A DNA stretch of 61,655 nucleotides from Gammaproteobacteria bacterium (lineage in GTDB: Bacteria; Pseudomonadota; Gammaproteobacteria; Steroidobacterales; Rariloculaceae): assembly GCA_035760685.1 (NCBI GenBank), contig DASTSM010000349.1, positions 1 through 61,655 on the forward strand. Direction: 5' to 3'. The position numbers and the translations under genes are program-made. The notes under the pieces were generated by a model. It worked only from the letters and a program-made list of their open reading frames with translations, made no database searches and was not told where the DNA came from. Below, one piece after another: positions 36,446-52,096 of this stretch; within the stretch, counting starts at the first letter, position 1, and each line of letters begins with the position of its first letter.

Positions 36446-38206
36446 GCGAACGAGCGCGCCGGCGTCTTGCAGTTCAGCTTCCGCGGCGGCCGCTCGGCGC
36501 GGCGCTAAGAAGCGGCGCTCGAGCTCCGCGGCGGTCAACGGCTCGGACAGCAAATAGCCCTGGACCTCATGGCAGCCGCGCGCGCGCAGCCACTCGAGCT
36601 GCCCGGGCCGCTCGACGCCTTCCGCCGTCACCGTGAGGCCGAGGCTCTGCGCGAGCGAAAGGATCGCATTCGCGACGGCGGCGTCGCTCGGTGAGCGGTC
36701 GACGTCGCGCACGAAAGCCTTGTCGATCTTGATGCGGTCGGGCGGAAAGCGCGTGAGGTAGGCGAGCGACGAGTAGCCGGTGCCGAAATCGTCGAGCGCG
36801 ATTCGGCAGCCGAGCTGCTGGAATCGCCGGAGCACGTTCTTGACCGCCGCCGAGTCCTTCACGAGCAGCGATTCCGTGATTTCGACTTCGATGAGGGCGG
36901 TCGGCACGCCGGCGTTCGCCGCCTCCGTCTCGATCACGCGCGCGGGGTCGCCGTGCAGCAGCTCCTTGGCGGAGCAGTTGACGGCGACCGGGATTTGCAG
37001 GCCGCGATCCAGCCACTTGCGCAGCTGCCGGCACACTGCGCGCACGACCCATTCGCTCATGTCGATGATCAGGCCGCTGTCCTCGGCGATCTCGACGAAA
37101 CGGGAAGGCGAGATGTCGCCATGCTCCTCGTCGCACCAGCGCAGCAGCGCCTCGACGCCGACGAGGCGGTTTTCGCGGAGGTCGAACTTCGGTTGGAACA
37201 TCAGCGTCAGGAGATCGTCGTGCACGGCGCGGCGCAGCCGCGCCTCGAGCTCGAGCCAATCCTGGAGGCGGCTGCTCATGACCGGCGCATAGACGGCGAT
37301 GGGTCCCAAGGCGCCCGACTTCGCCTGATACATCGCGGTATCCGCGTGCTTGAGCACCGACGCGACGTCGGCGCCGTCGTCCGGGAAGAAGGCGATCCCG
37401 ATGCTCGGCGCCGAGTAGAACTCGAGCGAGTCGTAAACGATGGGCGCCTCGAATTCGTCGCTGCACGCTTCGGCGATCTGCATCGCGATCTCGCGAGCGT
37501 TCGCGTGCTGGAGCACGATGATGAACTCGTCGCCGCCGAAGCGGGCGAGCACGAGCCGCGAATATTCCGCGGAGAAGCTCGCGAGCGTCGCGGAAAGCCG
37601 GCCCGCGACGGTGCGCAGGACCTCGTCGCCGACGGAATGGCCGAACGTGTCGTTCACGCGCTTGAAGCTGTTCAAGTCGAGGTAAATGACCGCGGCGGAC
37701 TCGTTCTTCCGTGCGGCGCTCTCGAACATCCCCTCCATGAGATCGATGCACCGCTGCCGGTTCGGCAGGCCCGTCAAAGTGTCGTAATACGCAAGCCGCT
37801 CGATGTGCTCGGCCGAAGCGGCGTTGCGCAAGATGTACTCCAAGCGGTGCGGCAGCAGCGCCCAGTTCACCGGCTTCGAGACGAAGTCCGTCGCGCCGGC
37901 CTCGAATGCGCGGCGGATCGCCTCCGAATCCTGATGCCCCGTGACCATGACGATCGGCACGCTGCCGAAGCGCGAGTCGGCGCGCAGGCGCCGGCAGACG
38001 TCGTGACCGTTCAGTCCGGGCATGTCGACGTCGAGCAGCACGATCGCGGCGTCGCTCTCGAGCGCGGCCGCGAGCGCATCGGCGCCGTTGTCGAAGGCGA
38101 GACTCTCGAGGCCGACTGCGGCGACGGCTTCGCCGAGCAGCATGCGGCCGAGATCCTCGTCGTCGGCGATGATCGCGAGCCGGCGTTGCTGATTTTCGCG
38201 GTTCAT
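36437..38206 (-). CDS. Response regulator with GGDEF and EAL domains (REC-GGDEF-EAL)
   Basis: 589 aa from the internal ATG at 38206, which forms an ATGA overlap with the kinase gene stop. REC ([20 protein letters not shown]). Intact GGDEF ([11 protein letters not shown]). Intact EAL ([22 protein letters not shown]). Confidence 0.9.
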
Positions 38207-41200
38207 GCGATCGCCTGCAGAGTCCGGCTTTGCAGCGTCTCGAGCAGCGGCACGTGCGCCGCACGCAGCACTCGGCACAGCTCCGGCGCGCGTGTGCGCC
38301 CGTCCGCGAGACACTGCCTCTCGAGCTCTTTGACTTGGTCGGCGTACGCGAGCGCACCCACGTTCGCCGCGGCCGAAGCGAGCTTGTGGCACACGGCGGC
38401 GGCCGCGGCGAGATCGCCTCGCCCGAGGGCGGCTTCGAGGTCGGCGAGCGATTGCGTGGAGCTCGAGCGGAACAGCTCGACGAGCTTCGCGTAGAGCGCG
38501 GCGTGCCTGCCCGGGTGCAGTTGGCGCAGCGCCGCGACGGCGTCGGCATCGACGCACGCGAGCCGCCGGGCATCGGCGGCGTCCTCGGCCGCGGCGCCGC
38601 TCGCGGGCGCGAGCCAGCGCCGCAAGAGACGCGTGCAGTCATCGAGCGTGTACGGCTTGCTCAAGATGCCGTCGATGTCGGCCGCGAGGCACTTCTCTCG
38701 GTAGTGCTCGGCATCGTGCGCCGTCAGCGCGACGATCGGTGTGCGCGCTTCGCCGTTCTCGCCGGCGCGCTCCTGATGTTGGCGTATGAGCGCGGTCGTC
38801 GCGAATCCGTCCATTCCAGGCATGCTGAGATCCATCAATATGAGATCGAAGCGTTCGGCCGCGCTGCGCGCGACGGCCTCCGCGCCGCTTTCGACCCAGA
38901 CGCACGTGCATCCGAGCGCATCGAGATAGCCTTGCGCGACCGCGGCATTGACGGGCTCGTCCTCGACGAGGAGCACATGCCCCGCGAGAGGCGCATCGTC
39001 GACGGCCCGATCATCGGCAGCGGGGCTCGCGCGCACGCCGATCGCAGCGGCCAGCGCGTCCCGCAACGCGGCCCGATGAACCGGCTTCAAAACGATTCGG
39101 CCGTCGGGCAACGCGGTGCGCAGCCGCCGTTCCTCCACATCGCCGGCGGTCGCGATTACGATGACGGGGGCGCGCGCGCCGCCGGGCGAGGCGAGCAGCG
39201 AGTCGACCGTGTCCGGATAGCTGTCGGCGTCGAGCACCACGACGTCGGCTCGCTGGGCCTCGGACTCGTGCGCGAGGATCTCGAGACCGAGCGACGATGC
39301 GTGCCGCGCGAGCGACTCCGCGAGCGACGGACGGCGCGACTGTATGTGGACGCGGCGGCCGGCGAGATCCGCGGGCCGGCTCGGCTCGAGCGCGTCCCCG
39401 ACCTCGAGCGGGAGCGAGACGCGGAAAGTGGAGCCGATCTGCGGCCGGCTCTCGACCGTGATGCCGCCGCCCATGAGATCGGCGAGCTCGCGGCAGATCG
39501 CGAGGCCGAGCCCCGTGCCTCCGAAGCGGCGCGTCGTGGCCTCGTCGGCCTGCGCGAAAGGCTCGAAGATCTTGGCCGTCGTCGCCGCGTCCATGCCGAT
39601 GCCGGTGTCGGCGACGGTCAGCCGCGCGGCGGCCCGGCCGCCGCCGTCCGTATCGATGTCCGCCTTGACGACGACTTCGCCTTGCTCCGTGAATTTGACT
39701 GCATTGCCGACCAGGTTCATCAAGATCTGGCGAATGCGAAGCGGGTCGCCGAGCAGGGCGCGCTCGGCCGGCGCCGGCGGGCACACGACGAGCTCGATGC
39801 CCTTCGCCTCGGCCGCACCCGCGAACAAGCTCGTGCATTCTTCGAGGATCCGGCCAAGATCGATCGGCAGCCGCTCGAGCGTCACCTTTCCCGCTCGCAC
39901 GCGCGACAGGTCGAGCAGGTCGTTGACGATTTGCAGCAGGATCTGCGCCGATGAGCGGATCGTTTTCGTGAGGTGCGTCTGCGTCGGCGAAAGCGCGGTG
40001 CGCGACAAGAGCTCGGTCATGCCGACCACGCCGTTCATCGGTGTGCGCAGCTCGTGACTCATGCGGTCGAGGAAGTCGCTCTTCGCCTGCGCCGCCTCGG
40101 CGAGCTGCCGGTTGCTCTCGACGAGCTCGCGCGTGCGCAGCTGCACCTCGGACTCGAGACGCTCGCGCGCTCGGGCCATCTCCTGGAATTTCTTCCGGTG
40201 CCGGCGAATTTGCTGCGCAATCAGGCCGAGCAGCGCGAGCGCATAGATCGCGTACGCCGCGGGCGACGCCCAGGGCGCGGGATCCCGGTGAATCGTCAAC
40301 CGCAAGGGCGTCGTGCTCCAGGCGGAGTCGGAGTTCGCGGCGCGCACCTCGAGCACGTGATCGCCGGGATCGAGATTCGTGAGCGTGATGCGGCGGTCGG
40401 CGCCGAGATCGATCCAATCGTCGGTCAGGCCGGCCATGCGATAGGCGAGTCGGTTGTACGCCGGCGACGTGAAATCGAGCACGCCGAAGTCGAGCGACAC
40501 GATGCTGCCGCGATAGTCGAGCTCGATGCGATCGCGCAGCCAGAAGGGCGTCTTGCCTTCCGCGCGCACGCCGAGCACCTCGACGTTCGTGAGCGCGACG
40601 CGCGGCGGCTCGCCGTTCTCCGACAGCGCCGCCGGGTCGAAGATGTTGAAGCCGCCCGGTCCCCCGAAGCACACGCGTCCGTCGCGCAGCCGAAAGTACG
40701 CGCCGAACGAGAACTCCTCGCCCTGCAAGCCGTCGGCGCGATGGTAGGTCTTGACGGCGCCCGTCGCGGGATCGAGCCGCATGAGGCCCGCGTTGCCGCT
40801 GAGCCAGATTCGGCCGAGATCATCCGGCACTACGCCGTACAGCGTGTCGCTCGAGAGACCGTCGGCGCGCGTGACGGCCTCGAACTCGATCGCATCGGGC
40901 GCCGCGGACGGATCGACGACGCGGGCGAGGCCGCCCCCGTCCGTGGCGATCCAAACGTTGCCGTCGCCGTCGACGGCGAGCGCATACACCGTGTTGGACG
41001 GGAGCGAAGACGGGTCGGCCGGATCGTTGCGGAAGACTTTCAGCACCGTGCCGTCCGCGCGCGCGAGATCGAGCCCCTCGCCCTCGGTGCCGAGCCAGAG
41101 ATTGCCGCGCGAGTCCTCCGCGATCGCGGTCACGTTCGGGGCGCTGACCGCACCCGGGGCAGAGCCGAAGGGAAGCTGGCGCACGGTGCGCGTCGCCGGG

Positions 41201-42729
41201 TCGAGCACGTTCGCGCCGCCGCCGAGCGTGCCGATCCAGATCGAGCCGCTGCGCGTCACGAGCATCGACAAGATGCCGGGTGCGCTCAGCGACTGCGGAT
41301 CGCCGGGCTGCACCGGAATCGACTCGACGCGGCCTTCCGGCGTGAGGACCTTGACGCCGCCGCCCATCGTGCCGATCCACAGCGCGCCGCGACGATCGAG
41401 CTGCAGCGACGTGAGCGGATCGTCGCCGACGGCATTCTTGCGCCCGACGAGCGTATCGACGGATGTCGCGACGCCGGTCGCGGCGTCGAAGCGAACGAGC
41501 CCGCTGAGCCATGCGATCCACAGGTCGCCGCCGGGCGCGTCCGCGAAGGCCGTGATGGGCTGGTTGTCGAGCCAGCTGGGACGATGCCCGCCGAGCTCCC
41601 AGCTGTGCGGGTTCCAGCGGCTCACGCCGCCCGTGCGGGTGCCGATCCAGACGAGGCCGGTCGGGTCCTGATAAAGCGACATCACGAACGAATCGCGGAG
41701 CGACGCGTTGTCGTTCGCGTCGCGGCGATAATTCGTGAACGTTCCCTTGGAACGATCGAGCAGCGAGAGGGCGTCGCCCGTGCCGACCCATAGCCGGCCC
41801 GCCCGGTCCTCGAGCAGCGCGCGCACGTCGTCGCTCGCGAGCGACGACGCATTGCCGGCGTCGTGTCGGAACGTTTCGAGCACCCGGCCGTCCCGGTCGG
41901 TGTGGATCAGGCCCGCATCGAACGTCGCGATCCAGAGCGTGCCGCTCCGATCCTCGATCACGCGCGCCACCTTCTTGTCTCGCAGCGAATGCGGATCGCC
42001 GGCGGGCGGGCCGACGCGAGTCAGCGTGCGCGTGTCGGACTGCCATCGGTCGAGCCCGCTGTCCGTGCCGATCAAGACGTTGCCGGCGCGATCGAGCGCG
42101 AGGGCGGAAACGCGGTCGTTGCCGAGCGAAGCGGGATCGCCCGGGTCGTGACGGATGTGCTCGATGCGCCCCGTCGACGGATCGAGCACGTCGACGCCCG
42201 CGTCGAACGTTCCGATCCAGACGAAGCCGCGCCGGTCGATGAGCACGGTGCGGACCCTGTCGCTCGCAAGCGAGCCTGAGTCGTTCGCGTCGTGTCGATA
42301 GCTCGTGAAGGCGTCGGTCCGGCGATCCCATTTCGCGAGCCCGGCGTCGTTGATCGCGATCCAGAGGTTGCTTTGCCGATCCTCGGCGATCTCCCAGATG
42401 TAGTTGCCGGGCAGAGAGCCGCTGTCCGTTCGAGAGCGCGCGTAGCGGTAGAGCTCGTGTCCGTCGTAGCGCACGAGCCCATCCTCGGTGCCGAGCCAGA
42501 CGAAGCCTTGCGAGTCCTGCAGCGTCGCCATGACCGTCGCCTGCGGGAGACCGTCCTCGGTCGTCAGGTGCTCGAGCACGAGCGGCGGCGCGTCGGCCGC
42601 GGCGGCCGACGCGCCGAGCATCGAGAGGCAGGCGTTGACGAGATGCGAGCGCCATCGGACGCTCGATCGTTGGGTCGATTTCACGCGCGGAGTCTCGGCG
42701 AGCTTGGGCGGCGCGGCGTTGATGCGCAT
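38203..42729 (-). CDS. Hybrid sensor histidine kinase with a periplasmic two-component-regulator propeller / Y_Y_Y domain, REC and HPt
   Basis: 1508 aa from the internal ATG at 42729. WIGT/WIAT/LWLGT propeller motifs recur about every 45 aa. TM segment [17 protein letters not shown]. HisKA ([11 protein letters not shown]). HATPase_c ([26 protein letters not shown]). A receiver-like spacer precedes the REC ([27 protein letters not shown]). HPt ([14 protein letters not shown]). Confidence 0.9.
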
Positions 42730-42788
42730 CCCGAATCCGGCAAGCGCCGGGAGGCCGCGCCGCCGAAGCGTCGGCGGCGCGGCGGACG

Positions 42789-44708
42789 TCACTCGTTGGG
42801 CACCCAGCTCGCGATCGAGGCGGGCTTCGTGCTGGAGGTTCGCGGCGGCGACGTGTACCACCAGGGCTCGCTTCGGCTCCACGTGTAGCCGCGGCTCCAC
42901 GTATAGCCGCGCGACCACGTATAGCCCCGGCTCCAGGTGTAGCCGCGGCTCCACGTGTAGCCTCGGCTCCAGGTGTAGCCCTGGCTCCAGGAGTAGCCTT
43001 CGCCCCGCGGATAGCCGCGCGACCACGTGTAGCCGTCGGCATCGGCGGACCCGCCCCAACGCCAGCCGTCCATGTCCATGATGTAGTAGTCGCCGTTCGC
43101 GTCCTGGTTCGCGGGGCCGCCGAAGTGCGCGATGCCGGCGATGTCCTCGTCGATGTCGAGCCCGCGGTTCGCGCACCCGGACGCGCCGCTGTTCGCCGCA
43201 TCGAGCGCGTTCAGGAGACCGGCTCCCTGCTGGAACACGCTGTACGCGAGCGTGCCGTCCGCCTTCACGGCGGGCCGCCCGGACGCGAGCAGCCGGCACT
43301 TCACCTCGTCCGGCGTCAGCCACGGGGCTTGTTGCAGCAGCAGCGCGACGACGCCCGAGGTCACGGCCGCCGCCTGCGAAGTGCCCGACATCACGAAGAG
43401 CTGCTCCGCGATGTTCATCGAGCCCGGATCGATGTTGGCGAGATAGCTGCTGCTCGACATCGAAGCCGCGATGTGGCCGCCCGGCGCGACGATCTCGGGC
43501 TTCACGAAGCCTTCGAAAGTCGGACCGGCCGAGGAGAACGACGCGAGACGGTCGTCGCCGCCGTCATAGGGCGTGTAGTCGTCCGTCAGCGCGCCGACCG
43601 TGATGACGTACGGCACGTTGCCCGGCACGTCGATGGTCATCGGGCTCGGACCGTCGTTGCCCGCGGCGACCACGACGACGATACCCGCGCGCCATGCGGC
43701 CATGACGGCCTGGTTCAGCGGATCGTCCCAGTAGAACGATTGCGGCTCCGCGCCGAACGAAAGGTTCAGCACGCGGATCCGGTACTGCGCGCGGTGCGCG
43801 ACGATCCAGTCGAGACCCGCGATGACGTCGACGTAGCGTCCCGCGCCCTCGCCGTTGAACGCGCGCACGATGACGAGATTCGCGCCGGGAGCGATGCCCT
43901 GATAGTCGCCCGAAAGCGCCTGCGCGCCGCTCGCCGCGATGGACGTCACGTGCGTGCCGTGACCGTACGGATCGCTCCTGACGGGGCCCGAGCCGCCGTT
44001 CGTCACGTCGACGGAGGCGAGGATGCGATTGCCGTAGAACTGAGTCGTGTCCTGCCAGAGCCCCGTGTCGAGCACGGCGATCGTGACGCCGCGGCCCGTG
44101 ATCCCGGCGCGCTGGAGCGAGTCGGCGCCGATGAGCCCCGGATAGTTCGTCTCGTAGAGCAGCGGCAGGCCGAGCAGGACGCCGGTGCCGTCCTCGAGCG
44201 TCGGAATGGAGCTCAGCGTGTCGACGAGCGGCGACGTGAGCGTGCTGACGAGAGGATCGGTCGTGACCGTCGAAACGACCGGAGTCGCGATCGACTGCAC
44301 GTCCTCGACGAGAGGACTCGTCGCGAGCGTCGAGTTCAGCGAGTTCACGAGGTTCTGCAGACTGCCGAGCAGCGAGCCGCGTGTTTTGACCGCGCGATCC
44401 TCGTAGACCCGAAGGCTCGAATCCGAGCGCAGACGGGCAAGCTGCGGCGGCGTGAGCCGAGCGGAGACGGCGTGAATGATGCGGAGCTCCGCCTCGGGCT
44501 CGGCGCCGACGGCGCGGACGCGGGTGCGCGCCGCGTCGAGCGTCGCGCCCTGCACGATATACGATGCCGTCTCTTGCGGCTGCGCCGCCGCCGCAAACGC
44601 GCCGGCCGTCGCGGTCAGGAGCCCGATCAGCAACCGAGCCGCGAGCCCGATTCGGCAGCGAGGCCCGAGGGCAAGCGGCAAACGCGGCGCACGTATGAAG
44701 TTTTTCAT
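42789..44708 (-). CDS. Secreted S8 subtilisin-like serine protease with a C-terminal (GYTWSR)n hexapeptide repeat tail
   Basis: 639 aa from the internal ATG at 44708. It has a signal peptide and an I9-like propeptide (ASYIVQG...LRVYEDRAV). The catalytic triad sits in subtilase contexts: [35 protein letters not shown]. The tail is Trp/Tyr-rich. Confidence 0.88.
42873..43034 (-). repeat. Nine tandem 18-bp units encoding GY(T/S/P)(W/R)(S/G)(R/Q/E)
   Basis: Read on the minus strand the units are [18 protein letters not shown], then 6x GYTWSR. The units differ mainly at synonymous sites: TAC/TAT, ACG/ACC, AGC/TCG, CGC/CGA/CGG. Confidence 0.9.
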
Positions 44709-44851
44709 TTTGTTTCCCCTGGCGAGCAGGACGTGCGCTATCTCAATACAACGGCCCCGGTACGGCACGGACGCGCCCGATGCGGCCTCCACGCATTGTG
44801 TGACGCGTGTCTCATAACGCGAGGTGTCAAATGCGGCGGTGCGGTGCGCCG

Positions 44852-46495
44852 TTACGCGGAGTGCCGGGCGGGCGCCGGCGCGGCCGCGTTCACGGCGACG
44901 TCGCCGTAGAGATCGCCGTTGCCCTGGGGGCACCCGAGCGCGAGCAGGGCGTCGCGCTGAGCCTCGTCATCGACGCCCGTGGCGATCGGCGTGAGCGAGA
45001 GCGCCGCCGCCATCGCGATCCCGGCGCGGCACACGTTGCGCGCGACCTCGTCGCCGCGCAGCGCGCCGACCCACGCGCGATCGAGCTGCAGGCCCCAAAC
45101 GGGACCGCGAGCGAGCGACGCGAGAGAGCCGACGTCGCGGCCGACTTCGTCCACGACGAAGCGCACGCCGAGCTGATGCAATGAGCGGAAGTCGGCCGGA
45201 TGGCGCGCGACGAAGACCTTCTCCGCGATGCGCAGCTCGAGCCGCTCGGGCGGCACGGCGCCGGACTCGAGGAACGCATGCATGTCGGAGACGAAGTCCT
45301 CGTGCAGCACGTGATCGCGCAGCGCGCCGAGCGAGATGCGCACGTCCGATTCCGAGCCCGCGCCGAGCGCGGCGAAGTCCTCCGGAAGTTGCGCGAGCAG
45401 GCTGCGCGAGAGGCTCGTCGCGAGGCCGGTCGTCTGCGCCACTCGCAGAAATTCCGCGGGACGGATCTCGCCGCGCAACGGATGAATCCAGCGGACGTAA
45501 CCGACCCACGCGACTCGGCGTCCGGTCCGAAGGTCGTGCCGGCCCGCATAGCGCAGGCGAATCGCGCCGCTCGCGATCGCTTCGCGCAGCTCCCTCGCGA
45601 TGTCGATGCGCGCGAGCGATTTCAGCTGCATCGTGTCGCTGAAGAAGAAGACGTCGCTCGACGCCGCACGGCGCGCCTCGGCCGCGGCGGCGCGCGCATG
45701 GTCGAGCAGGGTGCGCGGGCTCGTCGCGTCGACGCCTAGGATTCCGGCGCCGGCGTAGGGCGTGAGGTGGAACTCCGCGTCTCCGATGACGACGGCCTCG
45801 CGGAGGCTCGCGCAGACGCTCCCGACGCACGCTTCGATGACGTCGCGGTCCCCGCTTTCGACGACGAGGGCGAGCAGGTTCTCGCTGAGCTGACCCAGGC
45901 ACCAGCCGGACGCGCCGTCGTCGTTCGCGTTCGCGTTCGCGTTCGCGGGCGCGGGCGCCGGCAGCCGACCGAGCGCGGTCGTCATGATTTGCTCCGATAT
46001 TCGCGTCGAGATGATCTGCGCGATGTCGGCGATTTCCTCTATATAGATGACGGCGACCGCGATCGGCCGCTCGCGCAGCGCGGCAATCGACACCGCTTCC
46101 TTGAAGCGGCGCAGAAAGCCGCGGCGATCGAGCTGCATCCGGCGGTGCTCGCCGGTCGCATCGCCGACGTCGCCGTGCGCGCCGGTCAACGCCGGACGGA
46201 TCGCGAGGATCGCGCGCGACGGACCTTGAGGATTCGCGCGGACGTCGTATTGCTTGCCGCTCTCCCGGAAGCGAGCCTCGACCGGAGCGCGGTCGGCGAT
46301 CGTCTTGCGCGCGAGCTGCCGGATGAGGGCGGCCGTCGACTCGGACCACGCGGGGGCGAAGCGCCCGCGGCGCGACGGATCGCGGCCGGCCAGCTCGGGC
46401 ACGGCTCGGCCGCCCGCGTGCGCGATGAGCGTCCCGTCGCGCTTCACGAGCAGCACGAGATCGGGCAGCGCGTCGATGAGCTCCGGCGTCGACAT
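44852..46495 (-). CDS. Degenerate GGDEF-EAL protein with an N-terminal PAS-like region (FimX-like candidate c-di-GMP receptor)
   Basis: 547 aa from the internal ATG at 46495. The domain order resembles PAS-GGDEF-EAL. The GG(D/E)EF position reads QLSENLL. The EAL position reads [17 protein letters not shown] is replaced by VDEVGRDVGS. There are no TM segments. Confidence 0.7.
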   Translation of the reverse strand: MSTPELIDALPDLVLLVKRDGTLIAHAGGRAVPELAGRDPSRRGRFAPAWSESTAALIRQLARKTIADRAPVEARFRESGKQYDVRANPQGPSRAILAIRPALTGAHGDVGDATGEHRRMQLDRRGFLRRFKEAVSIAALRERPIAVAVIYIEEIADIAQIISTRISEQIMTTALGRLPAPAPANANANANDDGASGWCLGQLSENLLALVVESGDRDVIEACVGSVCASLREAVVIGDAEFHLTPYAGAGILGVDATSPRTLLDHARAAAAEARRAASSDVFFFSDTMQLKSLARIDIARELREAIASGAIRLRYAGRHDLRTGRRVAWVGYVRWIHPLRGEIRPAEFLRVAQTTGLATSLSRSLLAQLPEDFAALGAGSESDVRISLGALRDHVLHEDFVSDMHAFLESGAVPPERLELRIAEKVFVARHPADFRSLHQLGVRFVVDEVGRDVGSLASLARGPVWGLQLDRAWVGALRGDEVARNVCRAGIAMAAALSLTPIATGVDDEAQRDALLALGCPQGNGDLYGDVAVNAAAPAPARHSA

Positions 46496-46732
46496 GAGCC
46501 GAATATAGGAGGAGCGGAGCCGGGAAAACGTAGACGCAAGTCGGCTCTTTTCAAACGGATCGCCGCCCGCGGCGTTGCGCCTTGCGCGGCAAGGTGTCGG
46601 CGAGCATGATGGCCGCATCCGGCCCATGCCGACTGCGCGTCGCGGGAACGACGGAGCCCGCGCGGCGAAGAGGCGCGCAGTGCGCGCGTTGGGCACGCAG
46701 GGAACGGCGCGATGAATGAACGGGCCTGACCG

Positions 46733-48895
46733 GTGGTGGAGGGCGAACGCCTGACCCCGGATCTGGAAGCCGCCTTGGAGCTGCTCGCCGCGCGCGTCCA
46801 CGAGGCATGGGTCGAGCACCGGCGCCGGCGCGGTTGGCAGTTCGGCTCGGTGCGCGATGACGACGCCCGCCTTTCGCCTTCGCTCGTGCCGTACGAGCAG
46901 CTTTCCGAGTCGGAACGCGAGCTCGACCGAGTGACCGTTCGTTCCGCGCTAGAAGCACTGGAGTCTCTAGGTTATCGATTGGCGCTCGACGCTCCGGCAT
47001 CGAGCACCGTCTCTCGCGAGCATCTGCTCGCTCAGGCGGATCGGATGATTTCGCAGGGGCAGCCGCTGCCGGCGTACGACATCACGCGCCGTTTCCTAGA
47101 GGCCCACCCGAACGACGCCGCCTTTCGTCTCTGCAACGCTCGCGCGCTCCGGCGCGCAGGCGCATTGCAAAGCGCCCTGCGCATGCTCGACGATCTCGGC
47201 GCGAGTCCCGACGAGGACGGAGAGCGGCGAGGCCTCCTCGCGGCCATTCACAAGGAAATGTTCACTCGGGATCGCGGGCGGCCGCACGTCCACGCGGCGG
47301 ATCATCTGCGTCGCGCGCAACAGCTCTACAAGGACGTCTTCGAGGAATCGGCCGGCACGAAATTCTGGCACGGCATCAATGCCGCGACGCTCGCGCTGCT
47401 GCTCGGCAAGAAGTCGGAAGCCGGCACGCTCGCCCGACGCGTCCGCACGGCTTTGGGGCAGAATTCGATCGGCGACGATTACTGGCGGCAGGCGACTCTC
47501 GCGGAAGCGGCGCTGGTCGAGGGTCGTTTCGACCAGGCCGCCCTCGAGTATCGCAAGGCGGCCGCGCTGGCCCGAGATCGGGGCGGCGACGTCGCTTCAA
47601 CCCGTCAGAACGCCATGTTGCTGCTGCAAGCGCACGCCGCCGATGACCGCGACGCTGCGGCGATCGAGGCGGCGCTGCGGGCCCCGGGGGTCGTCCTGTT
47701 CGCCGGGCTCTCCGCGGATCCGGAGCAGGCTCTCGAACGCCGCTTCCCGCGCGCGGTCGAGAACGACGTGAGGATCGTTTTGCGCGAGCGCCTCGCCGCC
47801 GTGGACGCCGCTTTCGGCTTCGGCGGCGCCGCGCCAGGCGCCGAGACGCTGTTTCTCGAGCTCATGCTGGAACGCGACGGCGGCATCGCAACGGCGGTGC
47901 TGCCGTGGCCTCGCGATCAGTTTGCAGCCACGCATGTGCTCACGGCCGGGGCATCGTGGTTGCGTCGGTTCGAGTCGCTGCTCGGCAGCGCGACGCGTCC
48001 CGCGCGCGTGCACCACGTGGTCAACGCATCGCTCGGCGTCGGCGTCGACGGCGTTCTGTACGAGCGCTTTGCGCAGCAACTGCTCGTGGGACTCGCAAGG
48101 CTGCAAGCCGCAACGCTCGGCACCGACGTCGTGCCCGTCGTCGTGTGGGACAGCGCCGTGGGCGCGGGCGCCGACCTCGGCGCGCGCATCGAGCGCTTCC
48201 ACGCGCTCGGGCTGGACGTGAGGGATGCCAACGTCATCGACGTGAGGCCGATGCTCGAAGCCCGCGGACGACGAGCGTCGATCGACCGCCGGCCGACGCC
48301 GTCGGCGCCAGCGCCGGCGCAGAGCGCTTTCAGCGTCATGGCCATCCTGTTCGCGGACGTGGAGGACTACTCGCGCATTCCCGAGAGCCGTCTGCCGGCC
48401 TTCATCGAGTATTTCGTCGGCGGCCTCGCCAATCATTTGGCGCTAAAGCCTTACAAGGCGCGCAACGTGCGCCGGATCGGCGATGGTTTGCTGATGGTGT
48501 TTGCGAGCGTGCGCGACGCCGGCCTATGCGCTCTCGATCTCGTGGAGTGGGTCGGCATGCATTCCGAGCCCGGCGCGGACGGAGAAACGTTTTGGTCGCG
48601 GCTCGGTCTGCCGCGCGAGCTGCGCGTGCGGGTCGCACTGCACGCCGGCCCGGTCTTCGAGTGCGTCGATCCCCTGACGCAAGTCGTGAGCTTCGAGGGA
48701 GCGCATATCAACTACGCCGCGCGGATCGAGCCCGTGACGCCGGGCAATCAGGTCTATGCGAGCGAAGCCTTCGCGGCCCTTGCCGCGAGCTCACCCGCCG
48801 AAGGCGCCGAGTTCGTCTGCGAATACGTCGGGCTCATGTCGCTCGCGAAGAGGCTCGGCGAATATCCCCTCTATCATCTGCGCCGGCGCGGGTGA
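46733..48895 (+). CDS. Multidomain signalling protein: RyR domain + ASK1-type TPR (DUF4071-like) + Rossmann-like (SLOG/LOG-like?) module + class III adenylate/guanylate cyclase
   Basis: 720 aa with a GTG start. RyR domain: AARVHEAWVEHRRRRGWQFG..RDDDARLSPSLVPYEQLSESERELDR. TPR region with FWHGINAATLALLLG. G-rich loop FGFGGAAPGAETLFLE. Cyclase: ILFADVEDYSR, RRIGDGLLMVF, GAHINYAARIE. Confidence 0.8.
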   Translation: MVEGERLTPDLEAALELLAARVHEAWVEHRRRRGWQFGSVRDDDARLSPSLVPYEQLSESERELDRVTVRSALEALESLGYRLALDAPASSTVSREHLLAQADRMISQGQPLPAYDITRRFLEAHPNDAAFRLCNARALRRAGALQSALRMLDDLGASPDEDGERRGLLAAIHKEMFTRDRGRPHVHAADHLRRAQQLYKDVFEESAGTKFWHGINAATLALLLGKKSEAGTLARRVRTALGQNSIGDDYWRQATLAEAALVEGRFDQAALEYRKAAALARDRGGDVASTRQNAMLLLQAHAADDRDAAAIEAALRAPGVVLFAGLSADPEQALERRFPRAVENDVRIVLRERLAAVDAAFGFGGAAPGAETLFLELMLERDGGIATAVLPWPRDQFAATHVLTAGASWLRRFESLLGSATRPARVHHVVNASLGVGVDGVLYERFAQQLLVGLARLQAATLGTDVVPVVVWDSAVGAGADLGARIERFHALGLDVRDANVIDVRPMLEARGRRASIDRRPTPSAPAPAQSAFSVMAILFADVEDYSRIPESRLPAFIEYFVGGLANHLALKPYKARNVRRIGDGLLMVFASVRDAGLCALDLVEWVGMHSEPGADGETFWSRLGLPRELRVRVALHAGPVFECVDPLTQVVSFEGAHINYAARIEPVTPGNQVYASEAFAALAASSPAEGAEFVCEYVGLMSLAKRLGEYPLYHLRRRG

Positions 48896-48946
48896 GGGGC
48901 CCGGCTTATCAGACGCGCCGGCGCGGTGAGGCGCCGGCTTGTCAGA
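48880..48946. repeat. Tandem duplication (~34 + 32 bp) of the convergent stop/stop junction
   Basis: GCGCCGGCGCGGGTGAGGGGCCCGGCTTATCAGA (48880-48913) is followed by GCGCCGGCGCGGTGAGGCGCCGGCTTGTCAGA (48915-48946). Copy 1 supplies the cyclase TGA at 48893-48895. Copy 2 supplies the minus-strand TGA at 48942-48944. Confidence 0.6.
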
Positions 48947-49859
48947 GGGGCCGGCCGAATCCGCGCCTCAAGCGCGCGCATCCGAGGCGGCGGAAGGCGG
49001 CCAGCCCGAGCAACCCGCCGAGGAGCAGCAGGCCCGATGAAGGCTCCGGAACCGTGACCGGACCCGTCGCATTCGCGAACGTGAAGCTGTAGCGGCCTCC
49101 GTTAATCGGATCGAAGGTGCTTGGATTGATCCGGAAATACTCGGCGTCGGTCGTGAACGGGATGATGAACCCGGCAGGCAGTATGTCGGAGCCGACGCCG
49201 AAGACGTTTCCGATCGAGTTGAAGTTGTTGCAGACCAGGGCGCCGGAATTCGCCAGTGGACACAAATCCTCGTTGAACTCGTTGATGCTGACACCGCCGT
49301 AGTCGGCGAACGCCGTCAGCCCCAACGCGCTCAACAGATCGAAGGAAGTTCCGCCGTTCGTCGAATAGCCGATAAACGGATGGTCCTCGCCGGACAGCAG
49401 GCTCTCGTAGTTGAACTCCATGATCAGGCTCGAGTCGGCGAGCGCGAACAGCGCGAGCTGCAGACTGTCGGTCGGGATACCCGTCGGCTCCAATCCAGAG
49501 GCCCACGTTACGCGGAACCCGGCATCGATGCCGGTCGGAAAGTTTGCCGTCGGAGTCGAACGGCCGAAGGTGAACGTCGTGTCGCTCGTCGACAGCGCGG
49601 CAAACGGCGATAGAGTGGCGGTGCTTCCGCCGGAGCCGAACGTGAGAGTGCCGTCGGGGCTGATGGTCACCTCCGTGCCGGTCACGCCGAAGAGGTCGAG
49701 TGCGAAGCCGGTTTCTACGGTCTGCTCGGTCGCAAAGGGACCGAAGGTGTCCCAGTCGGTCCCGGTGTCGATGCGTATGACACGGCCGGCGTCGGCAGGC
49801 GGAGTGTGAAGAAGGAGGGCGACGAGTGCCGTGCAGAACATCGGGGGCAGCGTGCGCAT
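48942..49859 (-). CDS. PEP-CTERM sorting-domain secreted protein
   Basis: 305 aa. Signal peptide MRTLPPMFCTALVALLLHTPPADA. C-terminal VTVPEPSSGLLLLGGLLGLAAFRR, then a 14-aa basic extension. It lies downstream of, and co-directional with, the TIR-TPR gene. Confidence 0.8.
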   Translation of the reverse strand: MRTLPPMFCTALVALLLHTPPADAGRVIRIDTGTDWDTFGPFATEQTVETGFALDLFGVTGTEVTISPDGTLTFGSGGSTATLSPFAALSTSDTTFTFGRSTPTANFPTGIDAGFRVTWASGLEPTGIPTDSLQLALFALADSSLIMEFNYESLLSGEDHPFIGYSTNGGTSFDLLSALGLTAFADYGGVSINEFNEDLCPLANSGALVCNNFNSIGNVFGVGSDILPAGFIIPFTTDAEYFRINPSTFDPINGGRYSFTFANATGPVTVPEPSSGLLLLGGLLGLAAFRRLGCARLRRGFGRPL

Positions 49860-50005: not shown

Positions 50006-52096
50006 TCACGGTCCCTCCGGCCGGGCCGCATCGACGTCGGCGATGAGGCGGTACTGGCGGGCCAGCGCCGGGTTGCCGCGCGCGTCATAGAGCCCCGCAA
50101 CGCGCCCGGCGGCGAGACGCGTGAACAGGCCCTCCCGGCCCCACTTCGCCTCGACCACGGGATAGCTTTGCAGCAACAATGCTCCGGCCTGCTCTCGTTG
50201 GCCGGCGGCGAGACGAGCGGCGCCCTCGACGTTGGCGAGATACGCCTCGTGCCACGGCTCGTCGGGATACTCGTCCTCGAGCAGCGGCCTCGCGGCCTCG
50301 ACGGCGTGCAGTGCGTCGGTGACGCGTCCGAGGCGCCAGTAGACGTCCGCCAAGTTCGTCCAGATTTCCCCGCGCATCCTGTGCCGGTAGTGCTCGGCGA
50401 TCCGCAGCGCTTCCTCGAGCAGCGGCTCCGCGTCCTTCACTTGCCCCGCGGCGAGCCGCGCGAGGCTCAGGTTGTTGAGCGTATAGACGAAGTCGTCGTG
50501 ACCGGGGTCTTTGAGCTTTCGATCGACGTCGAGCGCCTCGCTGAGCAACGGGGCCGCTTCGGCGACCTTGCCTTGCTCGAGCAGCACGCGCCCGAGGTTG
50601 TTGAGCGCACTGGAGACGTTCGGGTGCTCGTTGCCGAAGATGTGACGATACCGATCGACGGCCTCGCGCAACACGGGCTCCGTCGCCTCGCGCTGTCCCG
50701 AGAAGTAAAGCAAGGCACCGAGATTGGCCAGCGTCTCCGCGACGAGGGGATGGTCGTTGCCCAGCGTCTGGCGGCGGATCGCCAAGGCTTCGCGATAGGC
50801 GGCTTCGCTTTCGGCGTACCGTTGCTCATAGAGCAGCGCGCTCGCCAGACCGGCCAGGCTGCGTGCGACGTCGGGATGCATGTTGCCGTGCAGGCGGCGA
50901 TCGATTGCGAGCGCGGCCGCGTACTCGGTCTCGGCTGCGGCGAACTCGCCGCGCTGACTCAGCAGATCGGCGACACCGTTCACGGCCTCGCTGACCTGCG
51001 GATCGCCGCCGGGATGCAGCTTCTCGGCGCCGGACAGCGCGTCCCGGTAGACCTTCTCCGCCTCCTCGTATTCTCCTTTGAGGTACAAGGCCGCGCCGAG
51101 GGCGTTGGCGGTATCGACGCTGTCCGGCGTCGGCCCGCCCTGCATCTGTCGGCGCAGAGCCCATGCGCGCTGCAGCAGATCGCTCGCGGGCTGGTAGAGA
51201 CCGAGCCCGGTGTAGACGCGGCCCATCGTGTACATCAGGTTGGCGCGCACCACCGGTTGTTGCTGGAGCTCCCGATCGATGCGCACGGCACCGCGATCGA
51301 GCACCTCGCGTGCCGTGATGCTGTTGCCCCTTGCCTCGCCGGGATCTGCAACCTGAAACAGTTGCACGAGAAACTCGCTCGTCTGTTGCGCCGTGGCCGC
51401 CTCGACTTCCGCGCGCGCCCTCTGCCGCTCGGCTTCGTTGCGGGAAATCAGCGCTAGTGCCGCGAGCAAGGACGCCGCGGCCATGCCGGCGACCGAGGCG
51501 GCCGCGATCGCCGTCAGATGCCGTTGCCGGCGCTGCGCATCGCGCCGCGCGAGCTCATCGAGGCCGACGCCGAGCAGCCCGGCGACGATTTTCAGCAACG
51601 CAGCGGTGCGACCGTCCTTGCCCGGCCGCAGATCGGCGGCGATCGGCTCGCTCACGCTCGCGGCGCTGTCGCCGCCGGCCCCGAGCGGCTCGAGCAGGCC
51701 CGGCGGGAAACAATCGGCGTCACCGAGCCCGTTCGGCTCGCCGGCGACGATGACGCAGAAGATCCTTTCCTGCCTGCCGAGCCGTCTGAAGGCGCGGATT
51801 TCCTCGCCGACCCAACGGGACTGCGCCGCGGCGGGCGAGCAGATTACGATCAGTGCCGAGGATTGCTCGAGCGCGGCACTGACCGCGCGGCCGAGGTCCG
51901 TCGCGGTCGGCAGCTCCTCGCGATCGCGGAAGACGGGGGAGATTCTGGCGGGCACCGCGCCGACCGTGGTCCTGCGCCCGACGAGGCGCCGCGGTACCCG
52001 GTAGCGTTCGAGCGCCCCGTGTAGCCAACGGGCCGTGCGTTCATCGTGATGGCTGTAGCTGATGAACGCACGATAACGGAACTCCGGCGTGCTCAT
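50006..52096 (-). CDS. TIR domain - transmembrane helix - TPR repeat protein
   Basis: 696 aa. TIR: YRAFISYSHHDERTARWLHGALE, PVFRDREEL, ALIVICSPAAAQSRWVGEEI (conserved Glu context). Linker motif AADLRPGKDGR..LLKIVAGLLGV. TM segment LTAIAAASVAGMAAASLLAALALI. About 10 TPR_12-like repeats follow (YEEAE..YR.AL.I....G..HP.VA..L.NL). Confidence 0.85.
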   Translation of the reverse strand: MSTPEFRYRAFISYSHHDERTARWLHGALERYRVPRRLVGRRTTVGAVPARISPVFRDREELPTATDLGRAVSAALEQSSALIVICSPAAAQSRWVGEEIRAFRRLGRQERIFCVIVAGEPNGLGDADCFPPGLLEPLGAGGDSAASVSEPIAADLRPGKDGRTAALLKIVAGLLGVGLDELARRDAQRRQRHLTAIAAASVAGMAAASLLAALALISRNEAERQRARAEVEAATAQQTSEFLVQLFQVADPGEARGNSITAREVLDRGAVRIDRELQQQPVVRANLMYTMGRVYTGLGLYQPASDLLQRAWALRRQMQGGPTPDSVDTANALGAALYLKGEYEEAEKVYRDALSGAEKLHPGGDPQVSEAVNGVADLLSQRGEFAAAETEYAAALAIDRRLHGNMHPDVARSLAGLASALLYEQRYAESEAAYREALAIRRQTLGNDHPLVAETLANLGALLYFSGQREATEPVLREAVDRYRHIFGNEHPNVSSALNNLGRVLLEQGKVAEAAPLLSEALDVDRKLKDPGHDDFVYTLNNLSLARLAAGQVKDAEPLLEEALRIAEHYRHRMRGEIWTNLADVYWRLGRVTDALHAVEAARPLLEDEYPDEPWHEAYLANVEGAARLAAGQREQAGALLLQSYPVVEAKWGREGLFTRLAAGRVAGLYDARGNPALARQYRLIADVDAARPEGP

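What the first reader, a model, noticed from the sequence alone, without database searches (positions are those of the whole stretch)
46733..48895. Unusual four-module architecture: RyR + DUF4071-like TPR + G-rich Rossmannoid + cyclase with Arg at the purine-specifying position
The domains were read directly from the translation.
- RyR domain, aa ~12-82 (nt 46766-46978).
- TPR-like region with GINAATL, aa ~95-315.
- Module with VVLFAGLS...FGFGGAAPGAETLFLELML...AVLPWP, aa ~318-500 (nt ~47684-48232).
- Cyclase, aa ~533-715 (nt ~48329-48877).

The cyclase keeps both metal-binding Asp residues (FADVEDYS, IGDG) and the Asn/Arg transition-state pair (HINYAARIE).

In my hand alignment to the KTIGD motif, the position that is Lys in adenylate cyclases and Glu in guanylate cyclases reads Arg (VRRIGDG). 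This raises the possibility of non-canonical substrate specificity.
Basis: partly seen in the sequence, partly recalled or inferred. Interest (0 to 1): 0.65.

Follow-up and report, generated by a model that had tools for sequence, protein, structure and literature searches.

The report
TIR-linked signal receiver with cyclase output
This gene encodes a four-part bacterial signalling protein whose first three parts resemble known or predicted receivers of NAD-derived "alarm" molecules made by TIR enzymes and whose last part is a cyclic-nucleotide synthase, and it sits next to a membrane TIR gene, so it probably relays one second messenger into another.

Summary
ORF 46733-48895 (+) encodes a 720-aa protein with four modules:
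- a RyR domain;
- a TPR-S repeat (DUF4071/MAP3K_TRAF_bd is only sub-threshold);
- a Rossmann-like module whose only clear structural match is the SLOG protein YpsA;
- a class III nucleotide cyclase.

Both metal-binding Asp residues and the Asn/Arg pair are present. Arg580 does sit at the Lys(AC)/Glu(GC) position, and Ser653 sits at the Asp/Cys position.

The Arg is a quirk of the window's clade. In 80 of 88 relatives that position is Asn, and almost none carries a canonical pair. The substrate cannot be read from sequence.

The family is large: about 1,000 clusters at 50% identity, spread over many phyla. In 47 of 80 genomes a TIR gene lies within 5 kb, and in 38 within 500 bp. The window has one 1.1 kb away: TIR, a membrane helix, then TPR repeats. 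The TIR catalytic Glu is invariant.

Recent papers tie RyR domains, SLOG domains and this TPR type to cADPR-type TIR signals.

My best reading is a Thoeris-like pair: a TIR-made NAD-derived signal is received by the N-terminal modules and switches on the cyclase. This is a new variant of a known kind, and nothing has been tested biochemically.

The parts
46733..48895 (+). Gene for the 720-aa RyR / TPR-S / SLOG-like / class III cyclase protein (GTG start, stop included)
   Evidence: The identical 720-aa product is P0001. Full-length AF2 model: pLDDT 88.5, pTM 0.82.
46748..46981 (+). RyR domain (aa 6-83). H23 (nt 46799-46801), W26, S48 and D65 (nt 46925-46927) have the same spacing as RyDEP ligand/catalytic residues H75, W78, H100 and D117.
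   Evidence: Pfam 64 bits; PDB profile hits. In RyR-bearing relatives: H23 52/56, W26 52/56, position 48 His 46/56 (Ser in the window), D65 46/56. RyDEP residues from PMC13232231. Codons checked.
47015..47674 (+). TPR-S repeat region (aa 95-314; Pfam core aa 115-221 = nt 47075-47395). Invariant polar residues K174, Y199, N216, T219, E258, R291. GINAATL is at aa 214-220.
   Evidence: PF20308 at 52 bits; PF13281 sub-threshold. 14 helices in the model. Conservation.
47684..48265 (+). SLOG-like Rossmannoid module (aa 318-511). Family motifs are FAGH, SAAxGADxLxxE and VLP. The window has L326 where the family has His, and E371 where it has Asp.
   Evidence: No sequence-level match. AF2 pLDDT 91. 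Foldseek: YpsA 2nx2 at E=6e-5, LOG family weak. The domain was found only together with TPR-S and/or cyclase. Conservation.
48266..48328 (+). Low-confidence linker (aa 512-532) tethering the cyclase domain
   Evidence: pLDDT below 50 for aa 515-527. Length is variable in the alignment.
48329..48886 (+). Class III nucleotide cyclase domain (aa 533-718). Metal Asp D542 (nt 48356-48358) and D584 (48482-48484). R580 (48470-48472) at the Lys/Glu position, S653 (48689-48691) at the Asp/Cys position, N660 (48710-48712) and R664 (48722-48724) as the transition-state pair.
50006..52096 (-). Presumed partner gene: N-terminal TIR domain (catalytic-type Glu in SRWVGEEI), one predicted membrane helix (about aa 193-216), then TPR_12/TPR_10 repeats
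   Evidence: Pfam TIR_2 E=9e-14 and ThsB_TIR E=1e-8. Sequence and helix. A 64% identical orthologue lies next to the 61% identical target homologue in L006, in a different arrangement and with different flanks. Family-wide TIR adjacency.
48942..49859 (-). Intervening 305-aa gene with a marginal PEP-CTERM motif. Whether it belongs to the system is uncertain.
   Evidence: Pfam PEP-CTERM E=4e-4, right at the cutoff. A gene of the same size, with a weaker PEP-CTERM hit, occupies the same place in L006, but similarity between the two is marginal at E=0.005.

Best explanation
The gene encodes the receiver-and-output half of a two-gene, Thoeris-like signalling pair.

Proposed steps:
1. The partner is a TIR enzyme. 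Here it is anchored in the membrane with TPR repeats on the far side of the helix. When triggered, it converts NAD+ into an ADP-ribose-derived messenger.
2. The messenger is bound by the N-terminal part of this protein. The TPR-S repeat is the constant sensor. The SLOG-like module probably adds a second nucleotide pocket. The optional RyR domain adds a third.
3. The RyR domain either increases avidity and dimerisation or, through its conserved His/Asp pair, hydrolyses the signal as a built-in off-switch.
4. Ligand-driven dimerisation or oligomerisation brings two flexibly tethered class III cyclase domains together. That forms the two-metal active sites at their interface.
5. The protein then makes a 3',5'-cyclic nucleotide. 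Its identity cannot be predicted, because the base-selecting pair is Arg/Ser rather than Lys/Asp or Glu/Cys.
6. That second messenger acts on receptors encoded elsewhere in the genome.

Shown here: the four domains, intact catalytic residues, the conserved TIR neighbour and its invariant catalytic Glu.

Inferred: the direction of signalling, which module binds the ligand, activation by oligomerisation, and the product.
For: Domains.

Catalytic competence: D542, D584 and R664 are invariant in 88 sequences, and N660 is present in the window.

TIR linkage:
- 47 of 80 genome loci have a TIR ORF within 5 kb and 38 of 80 within 500 bp. Only 3 TIR ORFs occur in 563 kb of outer flanks.
- Pfam confirmed TIR_2 in 10 of 10 sampled partners.
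- All-against-all clustering of neighbours found no other comparably conserved family.
- The pairing persists across changed gene order, strand and flanking genes.
- The TIR catalytic Glu is invariant in 56 of 56 distinct partner domains.

The partners carry variable sensor-like parts (Sel1, TPR, CHASE2, DUF4062). 31 of 53 have a membrane helix just after the TIR domain, whereas the target is constant. This fits 'variable sensor, constant receiver'.

Literature:
- RyR-domain (PF02026) phage proteins bind or cleave 2'/3'cADPR through H75, W78, H100 and D117 (PMC13232231). These residues map by identical spacing to the conserved H23, W26, position 48 and D65 here.
- The SLOG domain of ThsA binds 3'cADPR. 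The type VIII Thoeris effector ThsI carries the TIR-linked TPR that Aravind's group predicted, and is activated by cADPR (10.64898/2025.12.03.692087).

The linker before the cyclase is disordered.

In L010, a cNMP-binding histidine kinase sits divergently next to a RyR-less family member. This is consistent with a diffusible cNMP output.
Against: - In the window the TIR gene is on the opposite strand, 1.1 kb away, with another gene in between. It is not an operon.
- 33 of 80 loci show no TIR within 5 kb. Some of these are short contigs, and many are cyanobacterial.
- No ligand binding or enzyme activity has been measured for any family member.
- The window's clade has lost the family His in the SLOG 'AGH' motif (L326) and the phosphate-contacting His of the RyR domain (S48). 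Two of the three putative pockets may therefore be altered here.
- No cNMP receptor is conserved next to the gene.
- The window is ordinary chromosome with housekeeping and c-di-GMP genes, not a defence island. PADLOC finds nothing.
- The paper that defines TPR-S could not be read. Its predicted role is cited from memory and from the Sorek-lab preprint's remark.
Confidence: 0.55

Rival explanations
1. Reverse direction, as in Pycsar/Pucsar. This protein senses the trigger through its TPR, RyR and SLOG modules and makes a cyclic nucleotide. That nucleotide activates the neighbouring TIR protein as an NAD+-depleting effector.
For: Cyclase-plus-TIR pairs of this logic are experimentally established: Pycsar PycTIR (PMC11224242) and Pucsar cGMP-to-PucTIR (10.64898/2026.08.12.744502). 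The TIR catalytic Glu is invariant, which also suits an NADase effector.
Against: - None of the 10 sampled TIR partners, nor the window's, has a cyclic-nucleotide-binding domain. They carry Sel1, TPR, CHASE2 or DUF4062 instead.
- PADLOC PycC models do not match the protein.
- Three modules of the target belong to classes tied to TIR products.
- The variable partner and constant target fit a sensor-to-receiver arrangement.
Confidence: 0.12
2. The protein is mainly a processor or terminator of the TIR signal. The RyR domain would act as a glycosidase, as in RyDEP, and/or the SLOG-like module as a LOG-type hydrolase, degrading or converting the NAD-derived molecule. The cyclase would be a secondary or regulatory appendage.
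For: The RyDEP catalytic dyad equivalents H23 and D65 are conserved. LOG-family enzymes are weak structural neighbours of the middle module.
Against: - 28 of 80 family members lack the RyR domain entirely, yet about half of them keep TIR adjacency.
- Most tested RyR-domain homologues bind without cleaving.
- The cyclase catalytic residues are the most strictly invariant positions in the protein, so the cyclase is under strong selection as an enzyme.
Confidence: 0.12
3. It is an ordinary physiological adenylate cyclase whose TPR region binds proteins. The TIR neighbour is coincidental or only loosely related.
For: - JGI names relatives 'class 3 adenylate cyclase / TPR repeat protein'.
- The chromosomal context is housekeeping and c-di-GMP signalling genes.
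- No defence-system model matches.
- From memory, untested here: the mycobacterial adenylate cyclase Rv1900c also has Asn at the Lys position. Its structure is among the best fold matches.
Against: - TIR adjacency is far above background: 38 of 80 loci within 500 bp, against 3 TIR ORFs in 563 kb of outer flank. It survives rearrangement.
- The TPR is specifically TPR-S, with invariant polar residues.
- RyR and SLOG-like modules have no known role in protein scaffolding of cyclases.
Confidence: 0.08
4. It is an abortive-infection effector. Once triggered by the TIR signal during phage attack, the cyclase harms the cell, for example by draining an NTP pool, rather than signalling.
For: Thoeris effectors activated by TIR signals are typically toxic. 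Some relatives sit beside SIR2-TIR, nSTAND1, caspase or CHAT genes.
Against: - There is no defence-island context in the window.
- The TIR partners have periplasmic or extracytoplasmic sensor-like domains, which suggests environmental sensing rather than phage sensing.
- NTP depletion by a class III cyclase has no precedent that I know of.
Confidence: 0.1

Closest known systems
Type VIII Thoeris (TIR ThsB + effector ThsI), bioRxiv 10.64898/2025.12.03.692087
   Same: A TIR gene is paired with a protein that carries the TIR-associated TPR predicted by Aravind's group. That effector is activated by a TIR-made NAD-derived molecule, canonical cADPR.
   Different: - ThsI's output is a CMP-hydrolase-type domain. 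Here the output is a class III cyclase preceded by a SLOG-like module, often with a RyR domain.
- The genes here are often not co-oriented.
- The TIR partners carry membrane or periplasmic sensor-like domains.
- No phage defence has been shown, and there is no defence-island context in the window.
- I could not test directly that ThsI's TPR is PF20308.
Type I Thoeris effector ThsA (SIR2-SLOG)
   Same: A SLOG-fold domain receives a TIR-made cADPR isomer and switches on a fused enzyme.
   Different: - The middle module here matches SLOG only by fold: YpsA at E=6e-5. There is no sequence-level match.
- The output is a cyclase, not a SIR2 NADase.
- Additional TPR-S and RyR modules are present.
Phage RyDEP and other PF02026 RyR-domain proteins (PMC13232231)
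   Same: Same Pfam family. Equivalents of the ligand/catalytic residues H, W and D are conserved at identical spacing. Those proteins bind or cleave 2'/3'cADPR as dimers.
   Different: - RyDEP is a small stand-alone viral anti-defence protein. Here the domain is the N-terminus of a host multidomain protein.
- The phosphate-contacting His is Ser in the window's clade.
- No binding has been tested.
Pycsar / Pucsar cyclases (PycC, PucC)
   Same: They are class III-type cyclases with non-canonical base-selecting residues used in conflict signalling. The cCMP synthase EaPycC has Arg four residues before the second metal Asp, as R580 is here. They are also genomically linked to TIR proteins.
   Different: - PADLOC PycC models do not match.
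- Their TIR partners carry cNMP-binding domains and act downstream. Here the partners lack such domains.
- Those cyclases are stand-alone or have other appendages, not RyR, TPR-S and SLOG.
Canonical bacterial class III adenylate/guanylate cyclases (e.g. Rv1900c, CyaC, Ma1120, Cya2)
   Same: Same fold (TM up to 0.81), two metal-binding Asp residues and the Asn/Arg transition-state pair.
   Different: The base-selecting pair is Arg/Ser, or Asn with Asn/Thr/Ser across the family. The single sequence scores below Pfam's gathering threshold. The regulatory modules are different.

Membership tests
Class III nucleotide cyclase (PF00211) | Sequence match to the family model above the curated threshold | tested here: inconclusive
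   The window protein alone scores 17.9 bits against a cutoff of 21.9. A family profile hits solved class III cyclases at E=7e-12. The 36-38% identical homologues carry precomputed PF00211 hits.
Class III nucleotide cyclase (PF00211) | Cyclase-homology fold | tested here: met
   The top 47 Foldseek PDB hits of the full-length model are class III cyclases, with target TM 0.68-0.81.
Class III nucleotide cyclase (PF00211) | Two metal-binding Asp residues and the transition-state Asn/Arg pair | tested here: met
   D542, D584 and R664 are invariant in 88 sequences. N660 is present in the window, but is Ser in 64 of 88 relatives.
Class III nucleotide cyclase (PF00211) | Canonical base-selecting pair: Lys/Asp (or Lys/Thr) for ATP, Glu/Cys (or similar) for GTP | tested here: not met
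   The window has R580 and S653. The family has Asn in 80 of 88 at the first position and Asn/Thr/Ser at the second.
Class III nucleotide cyclase (PF00211) | Dimeric active site and cNMP synthesis | not testable with these tools
   Needs biochemistry or a modelled dimer with substrate.
RyR domain (PF02026) | Sequence match above the curated threshold | tested here: met
   64.2 bits against 27.4, over aa 6-83. Profile hits to RyR repeats and bacterial RyR-domain structures.
RyR domain (PF02026) | Ligand-contacting residues described for RyDEP and RyR3 R12 (His, Trp, His, Asp) | tested here: inconclusive
   H23, W26 and D65 are present. The second His is Ser48 in the window, but His in 46 of 56 relatives. 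The mapping rests on identical spacing (+3, +25, +42), not on an alignment with the RyDEP sequence, which was not available.
RyR domain (PF02026) | Binding or cleavage of cADPR isomers | not testable with these tools
   Reported for phage homologues only.
TPR-S (PF20308) | Sequence match above the curated threshold | tested here: met
   52.3 bits against 27.6, over aa 115-221. Present in all listed homologues.
TPR-S (PF20308) | Genomic association with a TIR-domain gene | tested here: met
   In the window the TIR gene is at 50006-52096. 47 of 80 related loci have one within 5 kb.
MAP3K_TRAF_bd / DUF4071 (PF13281) | Sequence match above the curated threshold | tested here: not met
   16.2 bits against 24.1, covering only aa 166-263. 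It is recorded for more distant homologues, where it overlaps TPR-S.
SLOG superfamily | Rossmann-like fold matching a solved SLOG member | tested here: met
   YpsA 2nx2 at E=6.4e-5, probability 1.00, TM 0.62/0.69. LOG proteins 1t35, 1ydh and 5wq3 match at E~0.03-0.04. Model pLDDT is 91.
SLOG superfamily | Sequence-level relationship or signature Gly-rich/acidic motifs | tested here: inconclusive
   No Pfam or PDB HMM hit. The family motifs FAGH and GADxLxxE resemble SLOG motifs from memory only. The window has L326 in place of His.
Thoeris-type TIR signalling system | TIR gene with catalytic Glu next to an effector gene bearing a signal-binding domain | tested here: met
Thoeris-type TIR signalling system | Co-transcribed operon | tested here: not met
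   In the window the TIR gene is on the opposite strand with a gene in between. Across the family, 29 of 53 partners are on the same strand and 24 on the opposite strand.
Thoeris-type TIR signalling system | Defence-island context or a match to known defence models | tested here: not met
   PADLOC gives no hit for the target and only generic TIR/TPR hits for the partner. The window carries housekeeping and c-di-GMP genes.
Thoeris-type TIR signalling system | Phage protection and signal-dependent effector activation | not testable with these tools
   Requires experiments.
Pycsar / Pucsar | Cyclase matches PycC models, and the partner effector carries a cNMP-binding domain | tested here: not met
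   No PADLOC hit at E<=1. Partners lack a cNMP-binding domain.

The most novel reading that the evidence does not exclude
A two-messenger relay. A Toll-receptor-like membrane TIR protein, with periplasmic TPR, Sel1 or CHASE2 repeats outside and TIR inside, makes a cADPR-type molecule. A host RyR domain working with TPR-S and SLOG modules reads that molecule, and perhaps self-limits it by hydrolysis. The signal is then converted into a cyclic nucleotide, possibly a pyrimidine one in the Arg580 clade. If so, it would be the first cellular (non-viral) RyR domain shown to work in cADPR-type signalling. It would also be a bacterial precedent for the long-debated cADPR-ryanodine receptor link in animals.
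Probability: 0.3. Interest if true: 0.85.

Novelty: new variant of a known kind. Interest (0 to 1): 0.62.

Why it matters
TIR enzymes and their NAD-derived messengers are shared by bacterial, plant and animal immunity. Known bacterial receivers all end in a killing or depleting enzyme.

This large, uncharacterised family has about 1,000 clusters, mostly in soil and aquatic Acidobacteriota, Cyanobacteria, Verrucomicrobiota, Planctomycetota and Proteobacteria. It would instead couple a TIR signal to synthesis of a second messenger. That would be a cascade rather than a switch.

The family also places a host-encoded RyR domain in the same protein as two other classes of ADPR-signal receivers, next to a TIR gene. 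That makes two ideas directly testable in a simple soluble protein: that RyR domains are cADPR-type ligand modules in cells, not only in phage counter-defence, and that this link is ancient.

The non-canonical base-selecting residues make the product itself an open and easily assayed question.

Tried and rejected
- PADLOC and NCBIfam scans of the target gave no meaningful hit.
- An exact-sequence contig look-up for the window protein found nothing on record.
- Pfam and PDB sequence searches with a profile of the middle module returned only chance-level hits. The fold had to be used instead.
- A profile search with the middle module found only fragments or family members, always with TPR-S and/or cyclase, so no alternative architectures emerged.
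- A RyR-profile search was swamped by stand-alone ~94-aa RyR proteins and revealed no other fusions.
- The paper that defines TPR-S (J Bacteriol 2020, e00365-20 / PMC7685563) is not held. Full-text searches for 'TPR-S' with TIR/NAD terms found nothing.
- No held paper combines RyR, TIR, cyclase and cADPR in bacteria.
- I looked for a conserved cNMP receptor or any other conserved neighbour by clustering all ORFs within 5 kb. Only the TIR family, plus nSTAND/TPR relatives and shadow ORFs, recurred.
- I tested whether the 305-aa gene between target and TIR is conserved with its counterpart in L006. Similarity is marginal at E=0.005, so it is not counted as part of the system.
- The N-terminal 400 aa of the divergent EAL protein has no Pfam match, so a cNMP-binding domain there is not supported.
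- I considered filing the cyclase under Pycsar and rejected it, for lack of model hits and of cNMP-binding partners.
Full report
**Observation.** Its codon-position GC profile is typical of genes in this 68% GC window. An identical 720-aa product is the only exact match in the protein collection (P0001).

**The four modules are real.**
- **RyR.** Pfam places a RyR domain at aa 6-83 (64 bits, cutoff 27.4). A profile of the family hits the RyR repeats of RyR1/2/3 at E~1e-61 and bacterial 'putative ryanodine receptor' structures at E~1e-29.
- **TPR.** Pfam places TPR-S (PF20308) at aa 115-221 (52 bits, cutoff 27.6). The DUF4071 family, now called MAP3K_TRAF_bd, is only a sub-threshold overlap in this protein (16.2 against 24.1 bits), although it is recorded for more distant homologues.
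- **Model.** A full-length AlphaFold2 model built on 46 homologues is confident (pLDDT 88.5, pTM 0.82). It shows 14 helices over aa 95-314, an alternating strand/helix domain over aa 318-511, a disordered linker around aa 515-527, and an α/β domain to the C-terminus.
- **Middle module.** It has no Pfam or PDB match at sequence level. Modelled alone (pLDDT 91), its only clear structural match is B. subtilis YpsA (E=6e-5, TM 0.62/0.69), which the held literature assigns to the SLOG superfamily (title of PMC6459960). LOG-family proteins follow only weakly. 'G-rich Rossmannoid' can therefore be sharpened to 'SLOG-like'.
- **Cyclase.** The single sequence is below Pfam's cutoff (17.9 against 21.9 bits). 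A family profile matches solved class III cyclases down to E=7e-12. The top 47 Foldseek hits of the full-length model are class III cyclases, with TM up to 0.81 on the target.

**Specificity residues.** The HMM alignments are anchored on the invariant Gly-Asp.
- R580 falls on the Lys of adenylate cyclases (3mr7, 1fx2, Ma1120) and on the Glu of guanylate cyclase 3et6.
- S653, three residues before invariant G656, falls on the Asp/Cys position.
- Codons were checked.
- Across 88 distinct family sequences, both metal Asp residues, R664, E666, H637 and G656 are invariant.
- The Lys/Glu position is Asn in 80, Arg in only 4 (the window's clade), Glu in 2, Lys in 1 and Ala in 1.
- The second position is Asn, Thr or Ser in 77 of the 88. 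The transition-state Asn is Ser in 64.

The Arg, however, is a clade-specific replacement in a family that is non-canonical throughout.

The substrate cannot be deduced. One published precedent points toward pyrimidines: the cCMP synthase EaPycC has metal Asp102/Asp146 and specificity residues F100, R142 and Q144, so it has an Arg four residues before the second Asp (PMC11224242). From memory only, the adenylate cyclase Rv1900c has Asn at that position, which would fit the family norm.

**How common is the architecture?** It is not rare.
- A search of 1.84 billion cluster representatives gives 1,006 clusters at E<=1e-30.
- The 80 best come from Acidobacteriota, Cyanobacteria, Verrucomicrobiota, Planctomycetota, Gamma- and Deltaproteobacteria, Methylomirabilia and Gemmatimonadales.
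- The nearest relative, at 61% identity, comes from an uncultured gammaproteobacterium.
- 52 of these 80 have the RyR module and 28 lack it.
- The core is TPR-S plus SLOG-like plus cyclase. The SLOG-like module was found only in that company.

**Context: a conserved TIR partner.**
- In the window, 1.1 kb downstream and on the other strand, lies a 696-aa protein. It has an N-terminal TIR domain (TIR_2 E=9e-14, ThsB_TIR E=1e-8), one hydrophobic helix, and TPR_12/TPR_10 repeats.
- A 61% identical homologue of the target (L006) has the 64% identical orthologue of this TIR protein next to it. There the arrangement and the flanking genes are different.
- The 37% identical acidobacterial clade has a convergent TIR-helix-Sel1 gene about 45 bp after the target in four loci with differing flanks.
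- I built a TIR HMM from these proteins and scanned the 80 genome loci. 47 have a TIR ORF within 5 kb and 38 within 500 bp. Only 3 TIR ORFs occur in 563 kb of flank beyond 5 kb.
- Pfam confirmed TIR_2 in all 10 partners sampled. Their other parts are Sel1, TPR, DUF4062, CHASE2 or unassigned sequence.
- 31 of 53 partners have a membrane-type helix shortly after the TIR domain.
- The catalytic-type Glu is invariant in all 56 distinct TIR domains.
- Clustering of all neighbouring ORFs found no other family of comparable recurrence.
- Other contexts include an apparent operon of SIR2-TIR, nSTAND1 and the target (L012). Another is a RyR-less member flanked by a cNMP-binding histidine kinase, a caspase and a CHAT protease (L010).

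**What the literature adds.**
[quoted passage not shown] They use H75, W78, H100 and D117, residues said to be conserved across PF02026 (PMC13232231).
- In the window, H23, W26 and D65 occupy exactly those spacings (+3, +42). The +25 position is Ser48 here but His in 46 of 56 RyR-bearing relatives.
- A 2025 preprint shows that the type VIII Thoeris effector ThsI is activated by canonical cADPR. [quoted passage not shown] It also recalls that the SLOG domain of ThsA binds 3'cADPR.
- I could not read the 2020 J Bacteriol paper that defines TPR-S. Its prediction that this TPR senses NAD-derived signals is quoted from memory.
- Pycsar and Pucsar show the opposite wiring, cyclase to cNMP to a cNMP-binding TIR effector.
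- No held paper describes the RyR/TPR-S/SLOG/cyclase protein.

**Mechanism proposed.** The variable, often membrane-anchored TIR protein is the sensor and signal generator. This constant protein is the receiver. TPR-S is likely the sensor, helped by the SLOG-like pocket and, where present, by the RyR domain. Ligand-induced association would bring two flexibly tethered cyclase domains together to form active sites, and a cyclic nucleotide of unknown base would be produced.

The RyR domain may add avidity or dimerisation. Alternatively, through its conserved His/Asp pair, it may degrade the signal as an intrinsic timer.

- **Shown:** the domains, intact catalytic residues and conserved TIR adjacency.
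- **Inferred:** direction of signalling, ligand, activation mode and product.

I put this at about 0.55.

**Rivals.**
- Pycsar-like reverse direction (0.12). It is weakened by the absence of cNMP-binding domains in the partners.
- A signal processor or terminator role (0.12).
- An abortive-infection effector (0.10).
- A plain adenylate cyclase with incidental neighbours (0.08).

**Caveats specific to this window.**
- The TIR gene is not co-transcribed with the target.
- The region is ordinary chromosome: MurJ, RibF, IleS, PilY1, a TonB receptor, AcrB, and c-di-GMP and two-component genes.
- PADLOC is silent on the target.
- The window's clade has changed the family His in both the SLOG-like 'AGH' motif (L326) and the RyR phosphate contact (S48). 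Its ligand handling may therefore differ from the family norm.

**Verdict.** The finding is best described as a new variant of the TIR/TPR-S (Thoeris-like) signalling theme, with a cyclase output and a host RyR domain. Interest is moderate to high because it is widespread, uncharacterised and directly testable.

Noticed in passing
window 50006-52096 (-): This 696-aa protein has an N-terminal TIR, a single predicted membrane helix (about aa 193-216) and a long TPR_12/TPR_10 array. That is a Toll-receptor-like topology. A 64% identical orthologue sits next to the target's homologue in L006.
   Followed up: yes
window 48942-49859 (-): A 305-aa gene with a marginal PEP-CTERM motif lies between the target and the TIR gene. 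A 303-aa gene with a weaker PEP-CTERM hit occupies the same place in L006, but the two are barely similar (E=0.005).
   Followed up: partly
window 44852-46819 (-): This divergent neighbour has an EAL domain at aa 408-637 and about 400 N-terminal residues with no Pfam match. Its longest ORF overlaps the target's start by 87 nt, so one of the two start codons is probably further in.
   Followed up: partly
window 36437-44933 (-): A run of signalling and secretion genes: a response-regulator-GGDEF-EAL protein, a very large hybrid histidine kinase with Reg_prop propellers, Y_Y_Y, receiver and Hpt domains, and an S8 subtilase. The subtilase gives PADLOC 'subtilase'/IetS-like hits. The longest ORFs of the kinase and the subtilase overlap by about 500 nt, so the kinase start is probably internal.
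   Followed up: no
L012 3202-10004 (+): An apparent three-gene operon in a relative: a SIR2_2-TIR_2 protein, an nSTAND1 NTPase, then a RyR-less TPR-S/SLOG-like/cyclase protein, with gaps of 23-56 bp.
   Followed up: partly
L017 12568-22220 (-): In a cyanobacterial locus (Dapis sp.), three tandem genes sit next to the target homologue. Each encodes three TIR domains. Pfam, run on the first of them, adds a CHASE2 domain with membrane helices.
   Followed up: partly
L010 4470-14115: A RyR-less family member is flanked by a divergent cNMP-binding histidine kinase, a caspase (Peptidase_C14) and a 1,291-aa CHAT protease. The kinase is a candidate cNMP receiver, and the context looks conflict-like.
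   Followed up: partly
L001/L013 5938-7940 (+): The closest genome relative (61%) seemed to lack a TIR gene in the gene calls. A 500-aa stop-to-stop ORF with a TIR domain (E~1e-27 with my HMM) lies just upstream, followed by short TPR-like calls. It is probably a frameshifted or mis-assembled TIR-TPR partner.
   Followed up: partly
P0056 (863 aa, sequence slice): A distant relative has GAF domains fused ahead of TPR-S and the SLOG-like module. Its C-terminal region has lost the FADxxxxS and GDG cyclase motifs, so it looks like an inactivated-cyclase variant.
   Followed up: no
L095 6001-8311 (+) and L094: Stand-alone ~94-aa RyR-domain proteins are very abundant in bacteria (2,446 hits). In one pair of related genomes such a gene is followed by an unknown ~357-aa gene and a TIR_2 gene on the same strand. 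In another locus (L093) no TIR is nearby.
   Followed up: partly
window aa 326, 48, 580, 660 of the target (nt 47708-47710, 46874-46876, 48470-48472, 48710-48712): The window's gammaproteobacterial clade departs from the family consensus at several functional-looking positions at once: SLOG His to Leu, RyR His to Ser, cyclase Asn to Arg and Ser to Asn. This suggests a coordinated change of ligand and/or product in this clade.
   Followed up: partly
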